Below the pieces are notes generated by a model that worked only from the letters and a program-made list of their open reading frames with translations, did no database searches and had not been told where the DNA came from. DNA of 64,000 nucleotides from a virus. Shown piece after piece: positions 12,817-23,677 of this stretch; position 1 is the first letter of the stretch, and the number at the start of each line of letters is the position of its first letter. The stretch covers positions 3,578 to 67,577 of IMG/VR virus record IMGVR_UViG_3300035183_000469; one strand, given 5' to 3'. The translations under genes and the position numbers were made by a program.

Positions 12817-13337
12817 TCAGATGTGCCGGCAACCGATACGCAGCCGGGAAAACTGCGTACCCGGTTGCCGTTGTACACTATCGCCGGATTCACCCAATAA
12901 ATAGCAGAAGAACGACGCGCAATCACATTGTACCGGATAAGATCACCGATCCCACGATAAAACGTCTTACGGGAAATACCCATCGCCTTGCAGCAAACAG
13001 ACGGAGATAGCCGTATCCGATCCCGATTCCGCCCCAAATGCATTACCACATAGCCGAATAACACCATGCCACTGCAAGATAACCCGTCAATACAAGCACG
13101 GGCTAAATCACCACGATAAACCTTGCACGATTCACCGGAATCCATCAAATACTGACTGTCTATCACACCGGAAGACCCAGCACCAACCGATAAATAACCA
13201 TCATCAGAGGAAATACCATCACGACGAATAAAAGACTCCCTGCGACTGCTTACAACAGCAGGAATAACCAATGATGATAGAAAGGGATTTGTGTCAGACA
13301 TAAAACGTACACCTCCAAAGAGGGTAAATTTAGACAC
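12813..13337 (-). CDS. RepL-like winged-helix replication/maintenance protein
   Basis: HTH 'MGISRKTFYRGIGDLI..NVI' followed by 'YWVNPAIVYNGNR', the C-terminal signature of RepL-family proteins. Confidence 0.65.
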   Translation of the reverse strand: MSKFTLFGGVRFMSDTNPFLSSLVIPAVVSSRRESFIRRDGISSDDGYLSVGAGSSGVIDSQYLMDSGESCKVYRGDLARACIDGLSCSGMVLFGYVVMHLGRNRDRIRLSPSVCCKAMGISRKTFYRGIGDLIRYNVIARRSSAIYWVNPAIVYNGNRVRSFPGCVSVAGTSD

Positions 13338-13675
13338 TCGTAGTCAAAATGTACACCATTTAGACCATAAAGTGGTAAAAAATGACACTTTCAAAAATCA
13401 CAGGAGGGTAAATTCTGACACAAGTTTCATAGAGGAAAGTGTCGTATTAAATATGAATACGACACTTCTAAGGGAATATAGTGTCAAAAATGACTACAAA
13501 CCATAAATCATAACAAATAACCATCACCGCAAAAAAAAAGAAGATACCATGAGAACATATAAACGCCACAGGAAGCCATTAGAACACGCAAAAGATATTA
13601 GACGACTAAAGACACCATTAGACTAATAAGAACGCATCAGAGGGCATAAAAAGACCTAAAGAAAGCAATACCACG

Positions 13676-13691
13676 TGTTCCACATGAAACA
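13676..13691. promoter_or_regulatory. parS-like centromere site
   Basis: TGTTCCACATGAAACA, 15/16 match to the parS consensus TGTTNCACGTGAAACA; intergenic. Confidence 0.6.
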
Positions 13692-13789
13692 TTAGGATAA
13701 TACACACCCACACATGGTAAAATATACCCCCCATATTTCCGGAATACCCCCCCACACACACCATACACCATCCTAAGTGTTTTGTGTAA

Positions 13790-13828
13790 ACAATACGTTT
13801 TCGGGGTAATACAATACGTTTTCGGGGT
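13790..13828. repeat. Direct repeat ACAATACGTTTTCGGGGT x2
   Basis: Exact 18-bp copies at 13790 and 13811, within a region of C-tracts. Confidence 0.85.
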
Positions 13829-14183
13829 TATCCCGCCGCCGCCGATGTTCGCACCCCCTCTTTTTGTTGCACCCCCCCTCTATATCAATGTTGCATTGTA
13901 TAGAACCATGCGAAACACATTACAAGACATTAGAAAGTATATTTTTGAAAAAGGTACTTTTGTATATTAAAGTACTATGTAAGGCATACTACTACTCATA
14001 GAGCTTACCTGCGTCCCGGTGATCCGGTGATCTGGTGATCCTGTGTGTTCCATTATGTTCCTGTGCTTCCATTCGTGCAACCTTAACATTACATTAACAC
14101 AATATGGCACGAAATATTATTGTCCTTAAAATAGGACACTTTTTATGGCAACTGTCCTAAATTCTTACTTTAGTTTGGCTTCA

Positions 14184-14345
14184 TAACTCCCTGATTTTCA
14201 AGCACTTACAAATATGTGACATTCTGTCTGTATAGTATTTTGGACAATAGCACACAACAAACTGATTTTCAGCTACTTGTTAACACCCTGATAATCAACT
14301 ACTTACAACTGCCAAAATAGAAACACTTGATTTTCAAGCAGTTAC
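14184..14345. promoter_or_regulatory. Four imperfect palindromic IHF-like sites
   Basis: TAACTCCCTGATTTTCAAGCACTTAC, CAACAAACTGATTTTCAGCTACTTGT, TAACACCCTGATAATCAACTACTTAC, AAACACTTGATTTTCAAGCAGTTAC; the halves resemble WATCAANNNNTTR. Confidence 0.65.
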
Positions 14346-14349
14346 ATAT

Positions 14350-14365
14350 TGGCACGGCGTTTGTA
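14350..14365 (+). promoter_or_regulatory. sigma54-type (-24/-12) promoter of the early operon
   Basis: TGGCACGGCGTTTGTA versus consensus TGGCACG-N4-TTGCW; predicted TSS near 14375 coincides with the start of a folded leader. Confidence 0.55.
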
Positions 14366-14374
14366 ATAGATAAT

Positions 14375-14451
14375 GCACGCAGGGTAACAGACCGGAACGG
14401 ATGGAACCTCCGGCTGATGCAGATTAGACAATGTGCAGCCCTGTGTTGTGC
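14375..14451 (+). ncRNA. Structured 5' leader (three-way junction)
   Basis: GCACGCAGGGT/GCCCTGTGT(T)GTGC closing stem, with inner hairpins CCGGA...TCCGG and TGCA...TGCA. Confidence 0.45.
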
Positions 14452-14469
14452 GACTTGTGTGCTGTGAGA

Positions 14470-15087
14470 TGTGCGTTCATTGACATCGCGGTGGGTTTTT
14501 CATTTTTTCAAACCAAAAAACTATGAAAAACCAAACACAATCCACTGCACTGGCTCAAGGAGCCGGCAGCGTGGCGGAAATGGTAGAGGAGATCAACCCT
14601 TTTTTCATTCCTTCTACCATTGACGAAACAACATCGCCTATAAAGGTGATTGTGTACCAGGATGATACGAGGATCGAGTTCAACAACCTGCCAGCCGGGA
14701 TCGAATCTCAGAATGCTGGAAAATTCTTCGGGACGTTGTTGAACGTAGTTCACCAGCAGGCGAAATTCATGCACGAAATGGGCGGGCGAATGTTTAATTG
14801 TAAACTCCCGGTTCACATAAGAGTTGAACTCGGAGAAAACGTCTACGACTCATATCGGGCGATTCGACCTGAATTTCACAAGCGTTTAAGATTCGGTTAT
14901 TCGCCAAAAGTGTTCAAGCGCTTTGCGTCAAGACACTTCCGGGTCTTCACGAACGCTTGCACTAATTCAAGAGTGCAGGTGATTACTTTGAGTGAGTTTC
15001 TTAAAAGATTAACAGACAACCAACTAACAATCAACTAACAATCAACCAACCAATAACCAAACCCACCGCGATTTCAGATAACGCACA
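14470..15087. repeat. ~29-bp long-range inverted repeat enclosing ORF 14523-15038; left arm contains boxA-like GTTCATTGACAT
   Basis: Left arm TGTGCGTTCATTGACATCGCGGTGGGTTT (14470-14498) versus right arm AAACCCACCGCGATTTCAGATAACGCACA (15059-15087). Confidence 0.8.
14523..15038 (+). CDS. First early gene, unknown function
   Basis: A-rich leader (AAACCAAAAAACT-ATG), 171 aa. Confidence 0.7.
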   Translation: MKNQTQSTALAQGAGSVAEMVEEINPFFIPSTIDETTSPIKVIVYQDDTRIEFNNLPAGIESQNAGKFFGTLLNVVHQQAKFMHEMGGRMFNCKLPVHIRVELGENVYDSYRAIRPEFHKRLRFGYSPKVFKRFASRHFRVFTNACTNSRVQVITLSEFLKRLTDNQLTIN

Positions 15088-15149
15088 CATTTTATTTTTT
15101 TTGGCTACTTGTTTCTTCGATGAATAAATAGCCACAATTTTTTTACTCA

Positions 15150-15833
15150 ATGTGCGGTTAATGGCCGCATGGAAACGCTGCCGGGAGCAGCGAATATGCC
15201 CGCATCTGCTGACGGGAATCAGCAGCTCTGCTAACAATCGGCTAATGGCATAGCCGGGCACGGCCATCTTGTCGCATATTGCGTGGGTTGCTGACCAACC
15301 CTTCGCCGGTGCGTAAATTCCGGAGACAACGGTAACCAGCCGGCGGCGAAGCAGGGGAACGGATACTAACTCTGCGCGCGGTGAGAATAAATGGTCGGCG
15401 CGCCAATATCCAACCTTTTAGGTACATAGAAGGCGCAAAATAGATCGGGTGGACACGATCCCGATCCCGTGAGATGATTGTATAGTCCGCGGGGAGCGGT
15501 CTGTGGACGGCGGGGGGTACGCAAGCCCTCTTAATTCATTTGCCATATGACTGTAAACCGATAGGGAGGGGTCATTTCGTGTGCAGGAAGGTTGCAAAAG
15601 GATTGCAACGAGTTTACTTCCTGACATTGCCTGGACGTGAGACGAGGCACAAACGCAGTCTCCGACCCCAAACGAAACCAAGACAGCTCCGGGGGACAGT
15701 GACATCCCGTAGGGGCTGTAATCAATATGGGCACCGCGCAGCCCGGATGATGCGCGTATGATGGGAACGGACACCCCGGAAAAACCGAACCTACCGGGGC
15801 AAGAAGTATTTGCTTGTCCCGGTATTTTTTTTT
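15150..15833 (+). ncRNA. Large structured non-coding RNA candidate (~680 nt)
   Basis: At least 14 helices visible, including nested multibranch domains, G-U pairs and GNRA-type loops; no credible ORF; ends in an intrinsic terminator. Confidence 0.7.
15792..15833 (+). terminator. Intrinsic terminator
   Basis: TACCGGGGCAAG-loop-CTTGTCCCGGTA followed by T9. Confidence 0.85.
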
Positions 15834-15891
15834 GCCGGCAGGTTAACTGACGAGCGCCGGCCGAAACACAACAGGATGTTGTGTCTTAACC
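15834..15891 (+). ncRNA. Hammerhead ribozyme, type I
   Basis: Stem I GGTTAA/TTAACC; core CTGACGA; 1-bp stem II whose loop CGCCGGC can pair with 5' GCCGGC; GAAA; stem III CACAACA/TGTTGTG; GUC cleavage triplet 15883-15885. Confidence 0.9.
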
Positions 15892-15898
15892 AAAAACT

Positions 15899-17161
15899 AT
15901 GAGTGAATTAAAAATTGCCTCCTCATTCAGGAGGTATCTTGAACAAAAATCAAAGGTATCAAAAGTAGCCGAAAGACTCCTAAACCCCGAATTTGTTAAC
16001 ACGAAATTCGGGAACTTTCTCTCACTTAAAGCCGGGATGATCGGCTACATGCCGGCCGGAAAAACACAAGAGATAAACGAGGACGGCACGTGGGCGCGTT
16101 CCGGTCGCCAACATGCACGGGCGGCACGTGTGGCACGTAAACTCCTGAATGAAAAAGGACTTGCCGGACTAACAGACAAAGATTTTGAGATATTCAGCAA
16201 TATTGTTTTTGCCACAGAAGAAAAAGGAAAAATAAGTATTGTCTGTGGCGAAGATATTAGGTGCTGGTACCATTATCGGAAATATTCCGGCAAAAACACC
16301 GGAAGCTTGTCGGAATCATGTATGAGGTACGATCGGTGCCAGCCGTACTTAGACATCTATACATCTAATAAAAATGTCGTCTCCATGGTCATCATGACCG
16401 ATGAAGACGACCTCCTAATAGGAAGAGCCCTCCTTTGGGAGAGCAAAGGAAAGAAATTCATGGATCGAATCTATGGTGATGACACAACCATAGAGACCTT
16501 CCGTAACTACGCATCCGATAACGGATGGTATTATCGGAAGTACAACACATACCATGACGAAACATGGTGGGTAGACTTCAAGGGGAGGGAGGTGGAAAAA
16601 AATGTTGAGGTCAAACTCGAAAAATGGGAGTTTGACCAATACCCGTATATGGATACATTCAAGTATCTGTATCCCGGTTGTGTTAAAAATTATGATAATG
16701 ACGCTATCAGCGTCCTCACCTCAACCGACGGCGGTGGCGGTGAAGATCGCGTGTGGTCGGATTACCACGACCGATACATTTTAAGAGAGGATTCGGTAGA
16801 CGTTCCCGGTTACGGCATTGTGCATATAGACGTAACGAGAACGTGCGAATACTGCGGTGACCTCTTCCATGAGGACGACCTTCGCGTAGGAGAAAACGGA
16901 AATATGTATTGTTATGACCATTCAATCAGACTCCACGACGGAAGCGTGTATAGTCAATCAGAAATAGATAACGATAACATTGTATATGTTCAAAGTATGA
17001 ATGAGTATGCACTCATTGATGACTGTATGATATGCGAGCATTGCAACGAGTACTTCTTCGCCGGACAAGAAACAGAGGTCACCGATAGCAACGGGGTGTC
17101 GCATCTGTTCTGTTGCGATAATCACGCGGATATGTTCTTAAACTCAGATGAAGACAAATGA
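15899..17161 (+). CDS. Phage early protein (SCM...GRALLW...DRIY family) with C-terminal Cys/His zinc-binding repeats
   Basis: GSLSESCMRY; YLDIY; IGRALLW; FMDRIY; YPYMDTF; several CxxC/CxxH motifs. Confidence 0.65.
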   Translation: MSELKIASSFRRYLEQKSKVSKVAERLLNPEFVNTKFGNFLSLKAGMIGYMPAGKTQEINEDGTWARSGRQHARAARVARKLLNEKGLAGLTDKDFEIFSNIVFATEEKGKISIVCGEDIRCWYHYRKYSGKNTGSLSESCMRYDRCQPYLDIYTSNKNVVSMVIMTDEDDLLIGRALLWESKGKKFMDRIYGDDTTIETFRNYASDNGWYYRKYNTYHDETWWVDFKGREVEKNVEVKLEKWEFDQYPYMDTFKYLYPGCVKNYDNDAISVLTSTDGGGGEDRVWSDYHDRYILREDSVDVPGYGIVHIDVTRTCEYCGDLFHEDDLRVGENGNMYCYDHSIRLHDGSVYSQSEIDNDNIVYVQSMNEYALIDDCMICEHCNEYFFAGQETEVTDSNGVSHLFCCDNHADMFLNSDEDK

Positions 17162-18351
17162 AGACAAATAATGAAATGAGAAAAACAGAGAAAGGGGGAA
17201 ACAAAGTCGTTGTCCCTCCGCACATTCACAACAAGGATAAAATTGAGTTGCCCAGAATGTTTCGCGACATTCTTTTAACTCAATCGGTCACCTATCGCAC
17301 CGAAGAAATGGTGAATGTGATAGAAAAGTACGCCGAGTCCTTCGGGTGTGTCACCATGAAGGACGAGGGTAACCTGTACTGCGTAAAGGGGGTATCCGAA
17401 ATCTACCCGTGTATCGTGGCGCATACGGATACCGTGCATAAAATAATTCCACAGCATCATTACCGGCTGATGCAGGCCGACGAAATTGTCTTCGCTTACG
17501 ATACGGAGCGGAAAGACTACACAGGCATTGGCGGCGATGATAAGGTTGGCATCTATATCGCCTTGTGTTCGCTGCGCGACTTGCCGGCATGCAAAGCCGT
17601 ATTCTTCCGTGACGAAGAGTCGGGATGCATCGGGTCGTCGAAGGCAAAAGAGAACTTCTTCGATGACTGCGGGTTCGTCCTGCAATGCGACCGGCGCGGA
17701 TCGTCAGACTTCGTAAAGTCAATCTACGGAGAACTATACTCTAAAGAGTTCGGAGATACGATTGCTCCGACACTACTCAAGTATGGGTATAGAGAGACAT
17801 CCGGCATGACTACGGATGTGGACGCCCTAAAAGATGTCATTGACATCTGCATGGCGAACATGTCGTGCGGATACTACAACCCGCACTTAAAAGACGAGTT
17901 CATCAACCTCCACGAGGTTGAGAATTGTCGAAGGATGGTCATGGAGCTGTGTGAAGTGCTGCAAGGGCAGCGATGGGAACATGAACGCCGGATGCCGTCC
18001 GGTTTCAGGTACGATGGCCATGAATATGGAGGACATGGAGGATATGGAAGATATTACGGCTATGGCACCGACTATGACGCCGGCTACGGCGACGACGGCA
18101 AGAACAAACCTACCAAAAAGAAATGGTGGGAACACTACCGGAATAAGAAGTATGATGCCGGATTTTACGACGCATCCTCGTGGGAGGATAAAGCCATTGT
18201 CGCCGGTAAAAAACCTTCTTCCGATCCGGAAGAAAGGTATGAGTCTATGTACCCGACAAATGAAAAGTGTCATCACTGCGGCGAAGAAAGTGTGTGGTAC
18301 GATAGCGATACGAACCTCGACTACTGTACCACATGTAATATGTATTTGTGA
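17158..18351 (+). CDS. M28/M20-like zinc peptidase
   Basis: AHTDTVH, GGDDKVG, DEESGCIGS, QCDRRG, TDV, N.SCGYYNPH...E; Gly/Tyr-rich tail and zinc ribbon. Confidence 0.85.
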   Translation: MKTNNEMRKTEKGGNKVVVPPHIHNKDKIELPRMFRDILLTQSVTYRTEEMVNVIEKYAESFGCVTMKDEGNLYCVKGVSEIYPCIVAHTDTVHKIIPQHHYRLMQADEIVFAYDTERKDYTGIGGDDKVGIYIALCSLRDLPACKAVFFRDEESGCIGSSKAKENFFDDCGFVLQCDRRGSSDFVKSIYGELYSKEFGDTIAPTLLKYGYRETSGMTTDVDALKDVIDICMANMSCGYYNPHLKDEFINLHEVENCRRMVMELCEVLQGQRWEHERRMPSGFRYDGHEYGGHGGYGRYYGYGTDYDAGYGDDGKNKPTKKKWWEHYRNKKYDAGFYDASSWEDKAIVAGKKPSSDPEERYESMYPTNEKCHHCGEESVWYDSDTNLDYCTTCNMYL

Positions 18352-18406
18352 AAAAAATCACGACCTTTTCACATAATATTCGTATAATAATTAAAACAAC
18401 AATCAA

Positions 18407-19180
18407 ATGAAAACAAAAAAACTTCCGGTATCCCTTTTAACTAAAAAGGGTGCCCCCAAAAAAGACCGGGTCAGTGCCTCATGTATTGAAGCCATCCTGA
18501 CCGGTACATCAAGAACCGGACGCTCGAACTATTCAAAGGGTTGGCGGCATAAATCAGTATGGACAGAAGCTACAGTCCGTCAGCTTCGGTTACTTGGATA
18601 TGACGCCATCGGACTAAACGACAAGAAAGGAGGAGCTAACGGTGAGTATGTTGTCATCACCCGTTCCGGTGAAAAGACATCACAGAGACAAGCATTTATC
18701 CGCGCATGGAGAAAAGAACACCGGATGAAATGCTATAAAGAAAGAGTCAATGAACCGGAAGCAATCATGGCTGCAGCCCGTGCGGCTGTAATACTGGTTA
18801 ATCCTTCGGATGCCGCTGATCCGGAGTATTGGAGGAGTTTATATCGTGGCTGCGGGGTATATCGGGTGGGATGGCGCAATGGTCGTATGACCTGCGCCAT
18901 ACATGGCGGATTCCATAACTCATGTCCACACATGGTTGATCCTGACTTATGGCATGATGCAGTAGTCCATGTCATGAAAGAACACAGTGATCATATCGTA
19001 AAGATGGATGGAAGCGGTACAACATTCTACTTCCGGAACATGGAAGATGCAGATAAGGTATGCAACGCAACTTCGATATGGTATGTACCCAACCTAAACA
19101 CTGGTGGGAAACACCTTAATATCACGCCTGCTGATGCAATAATCGAAACCAATAAGATACAGGCAAAATCTACTTGCTGA
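18407..19180 (+). CDS. Hypothetical early protein
   Basis: 257-aa ORF with A-rich leader. Confidence 0.6.
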   Translation: MKTKKLPVSLLTKKGAPKKDRVSASCIEAILTGTSRTGRSNYSKGWRHKSVWTEATVRQLRLLGYDAIGLNDKKGGANGEYVVITRSGEKTSQRQAFIRAWRKEHRMKCYKERVNEPEAIMAAARAAVILVNPSDAADPEYWRSLYRGCGVYRVGWRNGRMTCAIHGGFHNSCPHMVDPDLWHDAVVHVMKEHSDHIVKMDGSGTTFYFRNMEDADKVCNATSIWYVPNLNTGGKHLNITPADAIIETNKIQAKSTC

Positions 19181-19223
19181 ATGAATTGATCAAGATGTTC
19201 CTAAACGTTTTAAACTTTAAGCA

Positions 19224-19628
19224 GTGAAATACAAACAGAATCTCCGTATTGAAGGAAACAGGGTATTTTCATATGATACCCACGTAGCCACTATTGTTGG
19301 TAAACAGTTAGTCCGTCACGGCTGGTGGTCGGTGACCACATCCAAGCACATCAATTATGTTGCGTCTGTCTATGGTCTAACGGTCGTGGATGGCAATTTT
19401 GATGAGACGCATGAATCAAATGACAACCCACTCAGAATAGCAGCTGTAGCGGCTAAAATGGCCGACGTGTTCTGCGATAATGAGGCCGACAAAAACTCTT
19501 GGAAACTACGGATGTTAAAAGCCGGTGCAGGGGACGGTTTTAATGTCCCGGAAGATTGGGATGCTCTCACCGAGAATGAGAAAAAGAAAAGATTAAATAA
19601 TGTAATAAATGTATTATTAGAAAAATGA
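19224..19628 (+). CDS. Conserved-type phage early protein (SY.T.VA...S.TTSKHIN)
   Basis: VFSYDTHVATI...WWSVTTSKHINY motif. Confidence 0.6.
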   Translation: MKYKQNLRIEGNRVFSYDTHVATIVGKQLVRHGWWSVTTSKHINYVASVYGLTVVDGNFDETHESNDNPLRIAAVAAKMADVFCDNEADKNSWKLRMLKAGAGDGFNVPEDWDALTENEKKKRLNNVINVLLEK

Positions 19629-19740
19629 TTTTGTGAACCAAAAAACAAAAAATGGAAAAGAAGCAAATCACAATGATTCTTTACTATTGAAAGCTCCGAT
19701 ACAGTTAAAGTTGAGTTTGAACTTTAAAAACCAATTCATA

Positions 19741-19911
19741 ATGAAAAAATTTATTCAGGAAAACAGGCCGCTGATTGACCAAATCATTGCCAAAAGGTTA
19801 GGACAACCTAAAAACCCATACCCAAACGACGCAGAACGACGCCTATGGGTGCTGAATGACGAATATCTTTACAACATGTACCAGTATGAAACACGAAGAA
19901 AAGGTAAATGA
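19741..19911 (+). CDS. Small hypothetical protein
   Basis: Likely start ATG 19741 within track ORF 19633-19911 (MKKFIQENR...ERRLWVLNDEYLY). Confidence 0.5.
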   Translation: MKKFIQENRPLIDQIIAKRLGQPKNPYPNDAERRLWVLNDEYLYNMYQYETRRKGK

Positions 19912-20266
19912 ATTTGCCAAAAGACATGGCATAAAACTCCGAGTAATCGGAACTCCTGAGTACAAAAAATACTTCCCGGAAGATTTGTCTCCGAGATACG
20001 TGTTCAAAATGTGCCTTTCAAGACATGGAAGGAGATATACATTCACCTTCGTAAAAAGTTATGCCAACGGAAAGGTGCCAACAATGTACGAAGTGTTGCA
20101 TTCTCTTACTAAAAGCGACCCGGGCTCCTTTCAGGAGTTCTGCTACAGCCTTGGATATGATGCCGACAGCATCACGGCTAATAGAATATATAAAAAGTGT
20201 TGCAGGGAATACGCAGCCGTCAAACGACTGTTCGGCGACCTGCTTTATATGAAATTTGAGTTTTAG
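19886..20266 (+). CDS. Hypothetical early protein
   Basis: P..YEVL.SL...D..SFQEFC...GYD.DS..A..IY motif; start adjusted to ATG 19886. Confidence 0.6.
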   Translation: MKHEEKVNEFAKRHGIKLRVIGTPEYKKYFPEDLSPRYVFKMCLSRHGRRYTFTFVKSYANGKVPTMYEVLHSLTKSDPGSFQEFCYSLGYDADSITANRIYKKCCREYAAVKRLFGDLLYMKFEF

Positions 20267-20304
20267 CTTGATCATAATTTCTCTTAACCAAATAAATTTA
20301 TCCA

Positions 20305-20622
20305 ATGAAACAAAAAAGAAAGCGTGGCAGTACTAAGCTGCCTAAAAACGAACTGTTCACAATATCGTATGATTTTGTGCCAAGTAAAATTCGTTCCCCA
20401 AAAGACGGCAAGGTGATTGACAGAATCATTCTCACTCTGAACCATTGTGAGAAGAATGGTCACTTTACTGTACCTATCAATTACTTTAAGTTGTCTCCTA
20501 CGTCTATCTCGACTATCGTCCGCCGGGAATTGGCGCGCAGGAAGATGGAAATTGTCTTCGTTTCCGGCTTCCTAAAAAATGAGGGGAAAATAATTTCCAT
20601 AAGGTTTAAAAGAGTGAACTAA
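20305..20622 (+). CDS. Small basic, putative DNA-binding protein
   Basis: Basic; C-terminal beta strand resembling those of 1273-1809 and 22931-23245. Confidence 0.5.
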   Translation: MKQKRKRGSTKLPKNELFTISYDFVPSKIRSPKDGKVIDRIILTLNHCEKNGHFTVPINYFKLSPTSISTIVRRELARRKMEIVFVSGFLKNEGKIISIRFKRVN

Positions 20623-20906
20623 TGGTAAAACTTTCTTACAAAAAGTCATCGGACGGAAACATTGTCCCGGCCGTCGTCTCAAGGGAAACAAATGAAACGG
20701 TTTTATTCGGAAGATACCGTGGCAAACCGTTTGTCCTTGAACTTGTTGCGCCCAATTTGGTTCAAGTCCGAATAAAAGGGACGCAACAAAAGGAGAGCAT
20801 TCAGGCAGGCGACCTGTGGCGAATGCTAATGATAGCCAGCGCGCCACGTCGCAGAATGGAACGCCGGAAAGCGGCAACACGGAAGAAAAAAGGAGGTGTG
20901 CGATGA
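20622..20906 (+). CDS. Hypothetical basic protein
   Basis: Coupled (TAATG) to the previous gene. Confidence 0.55.
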   Translation: MVKLSYKKSSDGNIVPAVVSRETNETVLFGRYRGKPFVLELVAPNLVQVRIKGTQQKESIQAGDLWRMLMIASAPRRRMERRKAATRKKKGGVR

Positions 20907-21133
20907 AGCATATGCGACATCAATACACCACCGTGGTCATCAGAGGATGGGACGACAATTCCGAGGCAACGGAATACGCCGTGCAGTTCATCCCGATGCG
21001 TCCTACTCCGCCGTATCAGTTCAAAAATGTGGCCATCGTGTTTGCCAACGGACAAAAAATTGGAGCGTCCAATACCAGACGCATGGCTTCAAAGAGGGAG
21101 GCCATCAGGCAAATTAAAATGCTCACAAAATAA
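20903..21133 (+). CDS. Hypothetical protein
   Basis: ATGA coupling with the previous stop. Confidence 0.5.
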   Translation: MKHMRHQYTTVVIRGWDDNSEATEYAVQFIPMRPTPPYQFKNVAIVFANGQKIGASNTRRMASKREAIRQIKMLTK

Positions 21134-21136
21134 CAT

Positions 21137-21352
21137 ATGAAAAACATATTCATCTGTGCATGGTGCGAAACACCGTCTCAGATAGACGAAGACTCAGTAG
21201 ATGAACGCCGGTATTCCGGTCATATCTTCTGCTCAATGGAATGCCGCAACCGGTATTATCTATACCGGCTCCGGCGTAATCAACCGATTAAAAAAAATAT
21301 GTGTTGTGAGAGTGTTATCAAGAACGGGTGGGATAGTACACGCTTCCTTTGA
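21137..21352 (+). CDS. Small zinc-finger protein
   Basis: CAWC...FCSMEC motif. Confidence 0.5.
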   Translation: MKNIFICAWCETPSQIDEDSVDERRYSGHIFCSMECRNRYYLYRLRRNQPIKKNMCCESVIKNGWDSTRFL

Positions 21353-22904
21353 TTATCAGTCCGACATTTTAGCGCTGGTAAAAAATATCCGTGGGCGGAA
21401 GTGGGTGCCAACCAAACGACGATGGGACATCCCGTTGGCATCGGATACAGCCGACAAAATACGGCTCCTGATAACCAGGTCTGGATTTCAGGACAACGGA
21501 GGAATCATGGCAGAAATTGACCGTCTGTCAAAAGACGAGTTAATATATCTGCGACTGTCGTCCGCCGCAGACGGCGACTACCATGTTCACGGGTTGCGTC
21601 GAGACCTGCGTGGCTATCAGAAGTCCGGTGTGGAATACGGAATTAAAAGCCGCCGTCTTATCATCGGCGACCCGCCCGGAGTCGGTAAGACGTGGCAAGC
21701 CATCGGCATTGTCAATGAATTACAGGCATATCCTTGTCTTGTGGTATGCCCGTCCATAGTAAAAATGAAGTGGGCGAAGGAGTTTTCCGAGCTCCTCGAA
21801 CAGCCACGTACTATTCACGTGGTTAGCGGAAAAGACTTCCGCAGGGCAGACATCGTAATCATCAACTATGATGTTCTGAGGCAAAACCAGGATGCGATTA
21901 TGGCTTCCGGGTTTGCGTCCGTGATAGGCGACGAATTTCATAGGATAAAAAACCCAAAGTCACAAAGGGGGAAGGCGTTGGTGGCTATTGCTAATGGCAT
22001 TGAACTGAAAATAGGACTTTCAGGCACGCCGATTGTCAATGCGCCAAAAGATTTGGTTAACCAACTCAAAGCCATCGGGCGACTGAGTGAATTTGGTGGT
22101 GAATGGGGATTCTATAAAGACTTCTGCGATCTTCGCAAGGAGTTTTATGGATACACCTATGACGGCGCCACCAACCTTGGCGAGTTAGACCGAAGAATGC
22201 GTGGCGGTGGCATGTATGTACGTAGGGAGAAATCCGCGGTTCAAAAAGACCTGCCGGATAAAACTATCGAACGGGTGGACGTGCAGGTACATACTATGCC
22301 GGAATACATGGTCGCCCTGTCAGAGTCAAGGAAGATCATGACATCAAACCTGTCTGCGATAGACAGGGAGCGACAGATGATGACCATGCGGCTGCGGTTG
22401 CAGCGCATCACGGCCATGGGCAAACTTCCCTTTGTTAAGGAGGCGTTGGACGACCTTGTTTACAATGGAGAAAAGGTCGTAGTATTTGCCTTCTTCCGGC
22501 AAGTAATAGCGGAGATCGCATCGTGGTATCCGTCTATGACGGCAACCCTTACTGGTTCTGATTCGATGGAAGAGAAGTGGCGCAAGAACCAATCCTTCCT
22601 GACCGACCCGTCATGCCGCATCATTGTATGCAGCACGGAGATAACGGAAGGAATTGATTTGGTAAGCGCCGCCACCAGCATACACTCCGAGCTTGTGTGG
22701 ACGTATGCAAAACTTGAACAAAATATGGATCGGCTTCACCGAATAGGACAACGACAGCCGGTAACAGCTATCATCCCGGTTGCCAATACGTCGTCCGACC
22801 GGGCAATGTGGAAAGCAATCCAGCGGAAGGCAACATATTCACTGTCAGAAAGTGATATGATGCGGCAAATTTTGATGGAAGAAAATTTGGAAATAATAAA
22901 ATAA
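21201..22904 (+). CDS. SNF2-family helicase (HARP/SMARCAL1-like annealing helicase)
   Basis: N-term HARP-like 'VKNIRGRKWVPTKRRWDIP'; LRGYQ; GDPPGVGKT; DEFH; LSGTPIVN; QNMDRLHRIGQ. Confidence 0.9.
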   Translation: MNAGIPVISSAQWNAATGIIYTGSGVINRLKKICVVRVLSRTGGIVHASFDYQSDILALVKNIRGRKWVPTKRRWDIPLASDTADKIRLLITRSGFQDNGGIMAEIDRLSKDELIYLRLSSAADGDYHVHGLRRDLRGYQKSGVEYGIKSRRLIIGDPPGVGKTWQAIGIVNELQAYPCLVVCPSIVKMKWAKEFSELLEQPRTIHVVSGKDFRRADIVIINYDVLRQNQDAIMASGFASVIGDEFHRIKNPKSQRGKALVAIANGIELKIGLSGTPIVNAPKDLVNQLKAIGRLSEFGGEWGFYKDFCDLRKEFYGYTYDGATNLGELDRRMRGGGMYVRREKSAVQKDLPDKTIERVDVQVHTMPEYMVALSESRKIMTSNLSAIDRERQMMTMRLRLQRITAMGKLPFVKEALDDLVYNGEKVVVFAFFRQVIAEIASWYPSMTATLTGSDSMEEKWRKNQSFLTDPSCRIIVCSTEITEGIDLVSAATSIHSELVWTYAKLEQNMDRLHRIGQRQPVTAIIPVANTSSDRAMWKAIQRKATYSLSESDMMRQILMEENLEIIK

Positions 22905-22930
22905 AACTTTACTTTTATATCGTCAAAACT

Positions 22931-23245
22931 ATGACAGAAATCATTCGCAACGGGTTAACCGCTTCATTCAGAAGAAGATACCCTGAGCTGTTTGAGGATT
23001 TGGCGGCATTACAACCGCCAAGACCTCTAAAAAAAAGAGTGCCAAAGCCGGAGAAAATTTTGCCGGAGGATATGCACAAGTATTATGAGGTGGATAGCAC
23101 CTTCCATGCTGTTGCTCAAGAGGTGGCGCGATCGGCGGCGGCACACATAAGTCGCAGGACGAAGGGGAAATATACCCTCCGCTTTGTAACAGAGATACAA
23201 AACGGAATTGCTGTGCGCGGGGTGCGTATTTGGAGAATTAAATAA
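22931..23245 (+). CDS. Putative small DNA-binding protein
   Basis: Ends in GVRIWRIK, the same family motif as 1273-1809. Confidence 0.55.
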   Translation: MTEIIRNGLTASFRRRYPELFEDLAALQPPRPLKKRVPKPEKILPEDMHKYYEVDSTFHAVAQEVARSAAAHISRRTKGKYTLRFVTEIQNGIAVRGVRIWRIK

Positions 23246-23252
23246 AACGACA

Positions 23253-23480
23253 ATGATATTCAAAAACGAGACCGGAAGCTACCTCTCAAAGGACGAGGTG
23301 CTTAGGCATCACATTCGGGACGCGTTTGATAACACAAACAATGATTTCATGGGCGACATAAATGCCGAAGAAATTATTGCCTATGCAAGATACGTAGGAT
23401 ACGATGATCTTGCCGACGAGATGGATTTTGATTTGGAGATGAGCAGATTAAATCCTTTCAGAATATCTTTCAATCAATGA
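23253..23480 (+). CDS. Hypothetical acidic protein
   Basis: Likely start ATG 23253 within track ORF 23208-23480. Confidence 0.5.
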   Translation: MIFKNETGSYLSKDEVLRHHIRDAFDNTNNDFMGDINAEEIIAYARYVGYDDLADEMDFDLEMSRLNPFRISFNQ

Positions 23481-23595
23481 ATGATTCGCAAAAAAAATAC
23501 AGTAGTCACTATGACTTGCATGCTCTCTTATTTCCATATCTTTGTTTTTTATAGGATCGGCGGAGTTCTGATGTTCTCGCTCTGCCTATATCCTA

Positions 23596-23637
23596 AAACC
23601 CCGCAGTGGTGAGAGGCTGCGGGGTTTATTTTTTTTT
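23596..23637 (+). terminator. Intrinsic terminator
   Basis: AAACCCCGCAGT-loop-GCTGCGGGGTTT followed by a T tract. Confidence 0.85.
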
Positions 23638-23677
23638 ATTGCGGAAATTGGATGCCATTACATGAACCACCAACAAA

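What the first reader, a model, noticed from the sequence alone, without database searches (positions are those of the whole stretch)
15150..15833. ~680-nt densely structured non-coding RNA at the head of the early operon
Seen in the sequence: a GC-rich stretch with no credible ORF that folds into consecutive and nested helices. Examples: TGCGGT/GCCGCA (15153-15169); CGCTGC/GCAGCG; AATATGC(15193)/GCATATT(15274) enclosing CTGCTGA/TCAGCAG and CGGCTA/TAGCCG; GGGTTG/CAACCC; CTTCGCCG/CGGCGAAG; GGATA/TATCC enclosing GCGCGC/GCGCGC; CCTTTTA/TAGAAGG; GATCGGG/CCCGATC; GTCCGCGG/CTGTGGAC; a GCAA-capped stem. A large domain closed by TGCCATAT(15541)/ATATGGGCA(15726) holds ATGAC/GTCAT, CAGGAAG/CTTCCTG with GTTGCAA/TTGCAAC, TGCCT/AGGCA and ACAGCTCC/GGGGCTGT. 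CGCGCA/TGCGCG and a terminator follow. Several stems need G-U pairs on the + strand, which favours a + strand RNA. Established: large ornate phage ncRNAs (GOLLD, ROOL) exist and their functions are unknown. Inference: this is a large ncRNA that I cannot assign to a known class. It might be an RNA scaffold, a decoy against host defence, or an RNA antiterminator (put/EAR-like), possibly partnered with the orphan ORF 14523-15038.
Basis: partly seen in the sequence, partly recalled or inferred. Interest (0 to 1): 0.9.

Follow-up and report, generated by a model that had tools for sequence, protein, structure and literature searches.

The report
Conserved non-coding leader RNA in phage
A 700-base stretch at the front of a phage's early genes really is non-coding, GC-rich and conserved in one other metagenome sequence, and probably makes an RNA that ends in a terminator, but its elaborate fold is not proven.

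Summary
The window is most of a 67.6-kb phage genome with terminal repeats, from microbial-mat metagenomes. The stretch 15039-15898 has no credible ORF. It is 55% GC against 46% for the window. It ends in a strong + strand intrinsic terminator at 15792-15833. No Rfam 15 family matches it. Perfect local stems are in excess: 16 against 6.3 in shuffles. The + strand folds better than shuffles, z about -3.3. The same or a larger excess is found in the neighbouring early coding sequence (z -5.6 to -8.6), so dense helices do not single out this stretch.

The best new evidence is one homologue, seen only as a called "protein", P0121. It aligns to the antisense of 15396-15825 with 8 frame switches and 106 of 143 residues identical. 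This shows conservation at the nucleotide level with no conserved reading frame.

Back-translation gives 2 compensatory pairs, 3 compatible pairs and 5 broken pairs in 12 helices, which is equivocal. Only the 3' ~400 nt has support. I read it as a transcribed structured leader or ncRNA of an unclassified family, most likely gating read-through into the early operon. Homologue DNA could not be fetched, so covariation remains untested.

The parts
14470..14498 (+). Left arm of a 29-nt long-range inverted repeat that encloses ORF 14523-15038 (context; a possible processing stem that would set the 5' end of the downstream RNA)
   Evidence: the repeat finder pair I1: 29 nt, 86% complementary to 15059-15087, 560 nt between the arms
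15059..15087 (+). Right arm of the same inverted repeat. It lies in a G-poor, C/A-rich linker (15039-15149: G 9%, C 25%) that carries 11-nt direct repeats
   Evidence: (I1, D1, D2)
15150..15435 (+). It is real as sequence, but a role as structured RNA is not supported
   Evidence: GC 0.570. Helices located. MFE z + -1.5 and - -2.1, ensemble diversity ordinary. No homologue known: the antisense ORF query returned only the window's own 78-aa ORF
15436..15792 (+). Conserved 3' module, the credible core of the RNA. It has three hairpins, a multi-branch domain closed by 15541-15546/15727-15733, a further hairpin and a conserved single-stranded stretch
   Evidence: P0121 aligns to the antisense of 15396-15825 with 8 frame switches and 106 of 143 residues identical. 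+ strand z -2.9 (0 of 40 shuffles) and low ensemble diversity (2 of 40 lower); - strand z -1.0 (measured on 15436-15833)
15487..15543 (+). Block of 57 nt with no visible change in the homologue. It holds the hairpin 15485-15492/15501-15508, a 5-bp hairpin with an 8-nt loop, and a single-stranded junction
   Evidence: 19 consecutive identical residues in the antisense frame. No forced change between 15486 and 15546
15584..15623 (+). Long hairpin (7 bp + 7 bp) carrying one compensatory double change in the homologue
   Evidence: G15586->T together with C15621->A/G keeps the pair
15774..15799 (+). Possible anti-terminator. CCCCGG 15774-15779 can pair with CCGGGG 15794-15799, which is the 5' arm of the terminator
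   Evidence: Read from the sequence. A 5-bp version remains possible in the homologue (1-nt deletion in the C run, G15799->A). I estimate a chance expectation of about 0.1, so this is inference only
15792..15833 (+). Intrinsic terminator T1: 11-12 bp stem, 9-nt loop, nine T
   Evidence: I14. In the homologue A15793->G with T15823->C is compensatory and G15799->A turns a G.U pair into A-U
15841..15891 (+). Hammerhead-like motif between T1 and the start codon. It would cleave after C15885, 13 nt before the ATG at 15899. It is an adjacent feature and may belong to the same RNA module
   Evidence: RF03152 RAGATH-1-hammerhead 25.5 bits (gathering 56.3), E 0.0072 in an 80-nt search and 0.096 in 151 nt, covering model positions 26-77 only. 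RF00163 15.7 bits (gathering 34). No hit in the 1.1-kb or whole-window searches
15899..17161 (+). First large gene downstream (420 aa), a member of a widespread phage protein family of unknown function. It is the gene whose expression requires passing T1
   Evidence: 374 homologues at E<=0.001, best 42-47% identity. No Pfam or PHROG family. AlphaFold model pLDDT 85.6; only weak GNAT-like fold matches, E 0.017-0.1

Best explanation
The stretch is a transcribed, non-coding + strand RNA element of an unclassified family. Its functional core is the conserved 3' ~400 nt (about 15436-15833), which fold into several hairpins plus one multi-branch domain and end in the intrinsic terminator T1.

Most likely mode of action is in cis, as a long structured leader. 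It lies inside the early transcription unit, between a small first ORF and the first large early gene. No recognisable promoter lies between T1 and that gene. Transcription of the rest of the early operon, up to the next strong + strand terminator at 23596-23637, therefore has to pass T1. The fold of the upstream RNA would decide how often this happens, for example through the alternative pairing 15774-15779/15794-15799 or by acting on the polymerase.

A hammerhead-like motif just after T1 could then trim the read-through mRNA 13 nt before its start codon.

Shown: the stretch is non-coding, GC-rich, conserved without a conserved frame, and has a terminator and a strand-specific folding excess in the 3' part. 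Inferred: transcription itself, the cis-regulatory role, the anti-terminator and ribozyme activity.
For: Non-coding. Stops occur in all six frames. No Pfam family matches the antisense or sense ORFs. The one homologue switches frame 8 times over about 430 nt yet keeps 106 of 143 residues identical, with two independent tblastn alignments in different frames at E 3e-27 and 5e-27. These 1-2-nt indels also fall inside the 73-aa + strand ORF 15540-15761.

Conservation is uneven. A 57-nt block shows no visible change, beside patches such as 7 forced changes in 15469-15486.

GC is 0.551, against 0.388 and 0.342 in the other non-coding DNA nearby.

The terminator stem keeps pairing through a double change and a G.U to A-U change. 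The hairpin 15584-15623 has a compensatory double change. None of 6 slid controls shows a double change that keeps a pair.

The 3' module folds at + z -2.9 (0 of 40 shuffles) with low ensemble diversity, against - z -1.0.

The only two strong + strand terminators between 13.5 and 34.5 kb are T1 and 23596-23637. The Bacteroidota-type -7 motif (recalled consensus TAnnTTTG) is absent on the + strand between 13962 and 23537.

No Rfam family matches.
Against: The structure is not demonstrated. In the 12 local helices that the homologue covers, 68 of 79 pairs show no visible change. Of the 10 informative pairs, 5 keep pairing and 5 break. Forced changes are as frequent in stems (14 of 157) as outside them (19 of 228).

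The homologue is known only through a back-translated protein, so a third of the positions are unseen and the alignment near frame switches is uncertain.

The folding excess is smaller than in neighbouring coding sequence and in 150-nt and 300-nt windows it is unremarkable.

The 5' 286 nt have no support.

Only two instances exist: 8 scans of viral contigs, 2 of genome contigs and 1 of metagenome contigs gave no further copy. About 88% nucleotide identity could simply reflect recent common ancestry.

No promoter for the RNA was found. There are no expression data.
Confidence: 0.4

Rival explanations
1. A stand-alone, trans-acting large structured ncRNA of a new class, in the manner of GOLLD or ROOL. 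It would be released from the early transcript, with its 5' end set by cleavage at the long-range stem 14470-14498/15059-15087 and its 3' end by T1. It would act as a scaffold, decoy or RNA-only assembly.
For: The evidence is the same as for the best explanation: non-coding, GC-rich, conserved without a frame, strand-specific folding of the 3' module, and its own strong terminator. The 29-nt inverted repeat, 86% complementary, that encloses the upstream ORF could serve as a processing stem. Large phage-borne ncRNAs of unknown function exist, and GOLLD and ROOL form RNA-only multimers (abstract of 10.1101/2024.12.08.627333, seen in the listing).
Against: No match to any Rfam model. Only two instances are known. 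Covariation is equivocal. It is not next to tRNA genes (0 tRNAs in the window), which from recall is the usual setting of GOLLD and ROOL. Its position directly in front of a gene that has no promoter of its own fits a leader better.
Confidence: 0.22
2. There is no dedicated structured RNA. The stretch would be a non-coding spacer, possibly the remnant of a lost gene, that shares the hairpin richness of the whole early region. That richness would be caused by something acting on the region as a whole, at DNA or mRNA level. Only the terminator, and perhaps a few local hairpins, would be functional. The conservation in P0121's contig would reflect recent common ancestry.
For: Coding windows in the same operon fold even better than the flagged stretch: z -5.6 to -8.6 against -3.3. 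The excess of perfect stems is the same in coding 16200-16883, at 18 against 6.3. The z-scores in 13.2-23.4 kb are negative on both strands. Substitutions are not depleted in stems, and half of the informative pairs break. There are eight 1-2-nt indels in about 430 nt, as expected for weakly constrained DNA. No further homologues were found.
Against: Phage genomes are compact, and an 860-nt gap with GC 10 points above the genome and 16 above other non-coding DNA is unusual for a neutral spacer. Conservation is uneven, with a 57-nt block that shows no visible change. The 3' module folds better on the + strand only, unlike the symmetric signal in the coding neighbours.
Confidence: 0.3
3. The stretch is protein-coding. 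Either P0121 is a real antisense protein and the window carries a frameshifted pseudogene of it, or small + strand ORFs are translated (33, 73 and 30 aa).
For: Gene callers called P0121 (158 aa) in another contig and the 78-aa antisense ORF 15031-15267 in this genome. One antisense frame has only 2 stops in 860 nt.
Against: P0121 has no relative among 1.84 billion representatives except itself and no Pfam family. Its start lies inside the terminator hairpin. Eight frame switches separate the two copies, and the same indels break the + strand ORFs. The T-poor + strand (20% T) by itself gives few antisense stop codons.
Confidence: 0.04
4. A diverged member of a known RNA family: group I or II intron, GOLLD, ROOL, OLE, HEARO, RNase P, tmRNA, or a known antitermination RNA.
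For: None, beyond size and phage context.
Against: There were 0 matches at gathering thresholds in the whole window. At E<=10 only two noise matches appeared in 14900-16000. The flanking genes are complete, and the homologues of the 420-aa protein align from residue 1-3, so no split host gene exists for an intron.
Confidence: 0.02

Closest known systems
GOLLD and ROOL (large ornate RNAs, many carried by phages)
   Same: Hundreds of nucleotides long, non-coding, GC-rich relative to the surroundings, phage-borne, function unknown.
   Different: No match to their Rfam models. No tRNA genes nearby. Only two instances are known and covariation is unproven. It lies as a leader inside an operon and ends in a terminator directly before a gene.
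Cis-acting antitermination or attenuation leaders (phage HK022 put RNAs, lambda nut sites, EAR and LoaP-type leaders, riboswitch expression platforms). Names and properties are from recall.
   Same: It lies at the head of a phage early operon, upstream of a strong intrinsic terminator that downstream genes must pass. An alternative pairing that competes with the terminator stem can be drawn (15774-15779/15794-15799).
   Different: It is several-fold larger than put (about 70 nt) or EAR (about 120 nt). No Rfam leader or riboswitch model matches. The anti-terminator is a 6-bp GC pairing that could arise by chance. No ligand or protein partner is identified.
RAGATH-1 hammerhead ribozyme (Rfam RF03152), for the adjacent motif at 15841-15891
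   Same: The catalytic core CUGANGA ... GAAA ... stem III ... GUC, with a one-base-pair stem II closing a 7-nt loop, aligns to model positions 26-77.
   Different: The score of 21.7-25.5 bits is far below the gathering score of 56.3. The first 25 model positions are not matched. It is not detected in larger search spaces. It is absent from 50 of 50 viral records that carry homologues of the downstream gene.
RNase III-type processing stems around phage early genes and rRNA (recalled)
   Same: A 29-nt, 86% complementary long-range inverted repeat encloses the first early ORF, directly upstream of the RNA.
   Different: No cleavage data. It could equally be a DNA-level inverted repeat.

Membership tests
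Any Rfam 15 family (including GOLLD, ROOL, OLE, HEARO, group I and II introns, RNase P, tmRNA, riboswitches) | Covariance-model score at or above the family's gathering threshold | tested here: not met
   0 matches in the 64-kb window. At E<=10 in 14900-16000 only mir-4742 (E 2.3) and STnc410 (E 4.5) appeared, and both are noise.
Structured non-coding RNA (generic) | No conserved reading frame on either strand | tested here: met
   Stops in all six frames. The homologue differs by 8 frame switches over about 430 nt.
Structured non-coding RNA (generic) | Base pairs maintained by compensatory changes among homologues (covariation) | tested here: inconclusive
   One homologue, known only by back-translation. 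It gives 2 double compensatory, 3 one-sided compatible, 4 one-sided broken and 1 double broken pair, with 68 pairs showing no visible change. Changes fall in stems at 14 of 157 positions and outside at 19 of 228.
Structured non-coding RNA (generic) | Folding energy below dinucleotide shuffles, and more so than the genomic background | tested here: inconclusive
   The whole stretch gives + z -3.26 to -3.48 and the 3' module z -2.9. Neighbouring coding windows give z -5.6 to -8.6.
Intrinsic (Rho-independent) terminator | GC-rich hairpin followed directly by a run of U on the transcribed strand | tested here: met
   15792-15803/15813-15824 followed by nine T. The stem is conserved through a compensatory change.
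Terminator/anti-terminator leader (attenuator or riboswitch-like) | A mutually exclusive alternative helix that sequesters the 5' arm of the terminator, conserved among homologues | tested here: inconclusive
   The 6-bp alternative 15774-15779/15794-15799 is seen in the sequence. A 5-bp version is possible in the homologue. My rough chance estimate is about 0.1. No sensor domain is identified.
Hammerhead ribozyme (type I / RAGATH-1 variant), adjacent motif | Conserved core nucleotides and three-helix junction with a cleavage triplet | tested here: met
   The alignments show CUGACGA, G...C, GAAAC, an 8-bp stem III, GUC and a 5-6-bp stem I.
Hammerhead ribozyme (type I / RAGATH-1 variant), adjacent motif | Covariance-model score at or above gathering | tested here: not met
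   RF03152 21.7-25.5 bits against 56.3. RF00163 15.7 bits against 34.
Hammerhead ribozyme, adjacent motif | Self-cleavage | not testable with these tools
   Needs in vitro transcription and a cleavage assay.

The most novel reading that the evidence does not exclude
The early operon of this phage begins with an RNA-only control module of a new kind. Its parts would be a conserved structured RNA of at least 400 nt in an unknown class, a terminator that this fold opens or closes, and a minimal-stem-II hammerhead that cuts read-through transcripts 13 nt before the first large gene. The module would be embedded in a 10-kb early transcript whose coding sequence is itself selected for hairpins.
Probability: 0.15. 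Interest if true: 0.75.

Novelty: new member of a known kind. Interest (0 to 1): 0.42.

Why it matters
If it is real, this adds an unclassified large RNA to the short list of big phage-borne non-coding RNAs. Unlike GOLLD or ROOL, it sits where a function can be guessed and tested: directly before a terminator that gates an early operon.

The check also corrects the basis of the call. Dense helices and good folding energy are properties of the whole early region of this phage, coding sequence included. They cannot by themselves identify an RNA gene here.

The operon-wide excess of hairpins (z down to -8.6 inside genes), which ends at the operon's terminator, is an unexplained observation that may deserve its own study.

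Tried and rejected
Searches for homologues that led nowhere:
- blastn (distant mode) of 15100-15860 against 50,697 phage records gave no match.
- The own genome holds one copy only.
- The search for related loci in viral contigs found none with the 420-aa protein alone, the 397-aa neighbour, TerL, or the alignment of the antisense ORF with P0121. The same alignment found none in genome contigs.
- With alignment A2 of the 420-aa family I obtained 79 viral loci and 80 metagenome loci, at best 37% identity. nhmmer of 15040-15898 against all 159 found nothing. blastn gave only two 23-nt matches at E 0.81.
- BLAST of the stretch against the whole records behind 50 of the 79 viral loci matched 0 of 50. 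The other 29 loci were not searched as whole records.
- A degenerate 26-mer of the invariant block gave 0 viral stretches and 8 genome-contig stretches, none confirmed by nhmmer.
- Two exact 17-mers gave 25 and 4 viral loci, with 0 of 29 confirmed by nhmmer.
- The search of protein representatives with P0121 returned only P0121 itself.
- The antisense reading of the 5' half returned only the window's own 78-aa ORF.
- The search of earlier findings by sequence, by P0121 and by relatives gave nothing outside this window.

Sequencing runs. Two DNA runs from microbial-mat metagenomes hold the stretch, and one may be the source. No RNA holder is listed. The second run's contigs are identical where they cover the stretch, so they give no variants to use.

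RNAalifold on the window plus the partly known back-translated homologue was uninformative, because unknown positions are penalised.

A 2-kb apparently ORF-free, GC-raised region upstream of the 420-aa homologue in L113 and six other loci looked like a second RNA. It is a collagen-like repeat gene on the minus strand, with 1 stop in that frame and 9/18/27-nt repeats. Rfam on six such loci gave one tRNA only.

The ESM Atlas gave no usable look-alike for ORF 14523-15038. Foldseek against the PDB for the 420-aa model gave no match at E<=0.001.

Rejected ideas:
- Intron: the flanking genes are complete.
- Leader peptide 15758-15850: its frame is broken in the homologue.
- Replication origin or packaging site: the stretch is GC-rich, its folding is strand-specific, it has a terminator, and the genome ends in direct terminal repeats.

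Literature:
- 10.1101/2024.12.08.627333: abstract only, from the listings.
- PMC5737381: passages found for 'hammerhead'. 'RAGATH' does not occur in its main text.
- PMC10690425: six passages. Its candidates average 67 nt and needed three or more IMG/VR regions.
- A search for 'RAGATH' listed 15 of 48 papers, and I read none of them.
- Supplements are closed. The candidate lists in the supplements of PMC10690425 and PMC5737381 could contain this element, and I could not check.
- I ran no literature search dedicated to this exact element, so I make no claim that it is absent from print beyond.
Full report
Setting. The window is bases 3578-67577 of a 67,577-bp IMG/VR virus record with direct terminal repeats, and it carries one copy of the flagged stretch. 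Near-identical DNA occurs in two DNA runs from microbial-mat metagenomes, one of which may be the source. No RNA run is listed. Genes on the minus strand end at 13337. Plus-strand genes run from 14523 to about 33.6 kb. It is an inference, not a test.

The flagged stretch lies between ORF 14523-15038 and ORF 15899-17161. The first is 171 aa, with no Pfam or PHROG family and alone in its 90% cluster. The second is 420 aa, with no family but 374 homologues, the best at 42-47% identity.

Checking the observation. Of 117 pairs in the 18 ungapped helices, 112 are Watson-Crick and 5 are G.U, in 4 helices. All six frames contain stops. The longest ORFs, antisense 118 and 78 aa and sense 73 aa, have no Pfam family. 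GC is 0.551, against 0.457 for the window, 0.388 for the intergenic region 13338-14522 and 0.342 for the linker 15039-15149. The stretch ends in a canonical terminator, T1: arms 15792-15803/15813-15824, then nine T.

The helices exceed chance. There are 16 perfect local stems of >=6 bp against 6.3 +/- 2.6 in dinucleotide shuffles, reached by 0 of 200. The + strand MFE is 3.3-3.5 sd below shuffles (0 of 20; 1 of 100). The - strand is at -1.3 to -2.0 sd.

A control that changes the picture. Of 14 sense-strand coding windows of the same length, 11 gave z between -0.7 and +1.5. The three that lie in the same early region gave z -7.8, -5.6 and -5.8. The tool confirms z -8.57 for 16200-16883. That coding window has 18 perfect stems against 6.3 expected, whereas a late-gene window has 6 against 4.6.

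A 300-nt scan shows z mostly -2 to -7 on both strands from 13200 to 23400, and about 0 from 23700 on. Perfect stems of >=7 bp are about twice as dense at 12-24 kb: 41 of 118 lie in 19% of the window. The zone ends at the only other strong + strand terminator, 23596-23637.

Within this zone the flagged stretch is unremarkable in 150-nt and 300-nt windows. "Densely structured" is therefore true, but it does not distinguish this stretch from its coding neighbours. What does distinguish it is strand asymmetry, and only in the 3' part. For 15436-15833 the + strand gives z -2.9 (0 of 40 shuffles) with low ensemble diversity (2 of 40 lower), and the - strand gives z -1.0. For 15150-15435 the values are + z -1.5 and - z -2.1.

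Known families. Rfam 15 gives no match at gathering thresholds in the whole window, and only two noise matches at E<=10 in 14900-16000. There are no tRNA genes.

Homologues. The phage has no close relative in the collections I could scan. Loci carrying distant homologues of the 420-aa gene (79 viral, 80 metagenomic) contain nothing like the stretch.

The useful result came from treating the antisense ORF 15418-15774 as a protein query. It has one hit among 5.8 billion proteins, P0121. This is 158 aa, E 2.8e-14, from a 2,036-nt contig held by JGI/IMG and Logan, and it is alone in its cluster.

tblastn of P0121 on the window gives two alignments in different frames, E 3e-27 and 5e-27, whose identical blocks alternate. 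A frameshift-aware alignment places residues 1-144 on the antisense of about 15396-15825 with 8 frame switches and 106 of 143 residues identical. P0121 has no other relative among 1.84 billion representatives and no Pfam family.

The simplest reading is that P0121 is a spurious ORF called on a homologous non-coding region. The two copies differ by 1-2-nt indels that no reading frame on either strand survives.

Conservation is uneven. 15487-15543 shows no visible change, while 15469-15486 has 7 forced changes. Homology fades near 15400-15420, where the last 14 residues of P0121 do not align. Nothing is known about conservation of the 5' part.

I back-translated P0121 within scripts. For 425 covered positions this gave 43 changes that the amino-acid difference forces.

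On the 12 local helices between 15443 and 15823 (79 pairs), the counts were:
- 68 pairs show no visible change.
- 2 pairs show double changes that keep the pair: G15586/C15621 in the long hairpin, and A15793/T15823 at the base of the terminator.
- 3 pairs show one-sided changes that keep the pair, among them G.U to G-C at 15688 and G.U to A-U at 15799.
- 4 pairs show one-sided changes that break the pair.
- 1 pair shows a double change that breaks the pair.

None of six slid controls has a double change that keeps a pair. However, forced changes are as common in stems (14 of 157) as outside them (19 of 228). Some breaks are at helix ends. The loop-closing pair of 15443-15466 is lost, while A15442->G would add a G-C pair at its base. 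One break falls inside the 5-bp helix 15628-15632/15645-15649. This result is equivocal: it is compatible with a structured RNA and does not show one.

Architecture and likely mechanism. No sigma-70-like or Bacteroidota-type promoter motif was found directly upstream of the stretch or between T1 and the ATG at 15899. The stretch is therefore probably co-transcribed with ORF 14523-15038.

A 29-nt, 86% complementary inverted repeat (14470-14498/15059-15087) encloses that ORF. It may be a processing stem. It is followed by a G-poor, C/A-rich repeat linker.

Expression of the 420-aa gene and the operon behind it requires read-through of T1. The next strong + strand terminator is at 23596-23637. 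The 5' arm of T1 (15794-15799) can alternatively pair with 15774-15779. This is a possible anti-terminator and would remain possible as 5 bp in the homologue, but a 6-bp GC pairing of this kind is not rare by chance.

Directly after T1, 15841-15891 aligns to the catalytic half of Rfam's RAGATH-1 hammerhead, including its one-base-pair stem II with a 7-nt loop. The score is well below threshold: 21.7-25.5 bits against 56.3, with E 0.007-0.1 only in 80-151-nt search spaces. Cleavage would fall 13 nt before the start codon. The motif is not a general companion of the 420-aa gene family, being found in 0 of 50 records.

Taking these points together, I favour a cis-acting structured leader that sets the rate of read-through at T1. 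The second choice is a stand-alone ncRNA. A largely unconstrained spacer within a hairpin-rich operon is a serious rival.

The downstream protein gives no hint of RNA binding. Its model has pLDDT 85.6 and only weak GNAT-like matches, E 0.017-0.1. The upstream ORF has no usable model or look-alike.

Comparison and novelty. The element resembles GOLLD and ROOL only in being a large non-coding RNA candidate on a phage. It fails the membership test for every Rfam family. It resembles antitermination or attenuation leaders in position and in ending with a terminator, but it is several times larger and has no defined sensor. If real, it is a new family within a known kind. With two instances and no covariation, it cannot yet be called a class.

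Verdict. The size and ornateness are overstated: the supported core is about 400 nt. Interest is moderate at 0.42.

Noticed in passing
window 13200-23640: The whole early region is hairpin-rich, inside genes as well. 684-nt coding windows at 16200, 17300 and 21500 fold at z -7.8, -5.6 and -5.8 (tool check z -8.57), against -0.7 to +1.5 for 11 other coding windows. 300-nt z-scores are negative on both strands. The zone stops at the terminator 23596-23637. The hairpins have unrelated sequences, so they are not a repeat family. The cause is unknown.
   Followed up: partly
The full catalytic core and a 1-bp stem II with a 7-nt loop align to the 3' two-thirds of Rfam RF03152, RAGATH-1-hammerhead. 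The score is sub-threshold at 21.7-25.5 bits against 56.3. The loop is complementary to GCCGGC at 15834-15839.
   Followed up: partly
The repeat is confirmed. Its role, as a processing stem or a DNA-level repeat, is not tested.
   Followed up: partly
window 15010-15149: The end of the 171-aa ORF and the linker behind it carry three to four 11-nt-spaced A/C-rich direct repeats (CTAACAATCAA-like) in a stretch with 9% G and 25% C. This is an unstructured, C-over-G segment of the kind Rho prefers (recalled), and it sits just before the G-rich structured stretch.
   Followed up: no
window 14503-14526 and 15879-15902: The two genes flanking the stretch share the same start context (AACCAAAAACTATGA; 24-nt repeat at 75% identity). 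Only 2 of 47 ORFs in the window have a Shine-Dalgarno-like motif.
   Followed up: partly
window 15031-15267, minus strand: A 78-aa antisense ORF that overlaps the linker and the first helices is present as a called protein in the public protein collection (P0122, from the 67,577-nt contig). It has no homologue and is probably a spurious call, as is P0121 in the related contig.
   Followed up: partly
window 15899-17161: The 420-aa protein belongs to a large phage family with 374 hits, including jumbo-phage contigs of 300-500 kb. Invariant motifs include SCMRY, GRA..W and PY.DTF. The confident AlphaFold model (pLDDT 85.6) has a weak GNAT-like central fold (Foldseek E 0.017-0.1) and a Cys-rich C-terminal run of beta-hairpins. 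Its function is unknown.
   Followed up: partly
window 15346-15366 and 15754-15774: The 12-mer GGGAACGGAYAC occurs twice in the stretch, each time a few bases after the 3' strand of a helix. The second copy lies in a block conserved in P0121. My rough estimate of the chance expectation for such a repeat is about 0.5.
   Followed up: no
L113:633-2649 and the same place in L029, L087, L104, L092, L160, L083: About 1.3 kb upstream of the 420-aa homologue in a group of large freshwater phage contigs lies a conserved 2-kb collagen-like (9/18/27-nt periodic) gene on the opposite strand. My ORF script missed it, so at first it looked like a GC-rich ORF-free region.
   Followed up: yes
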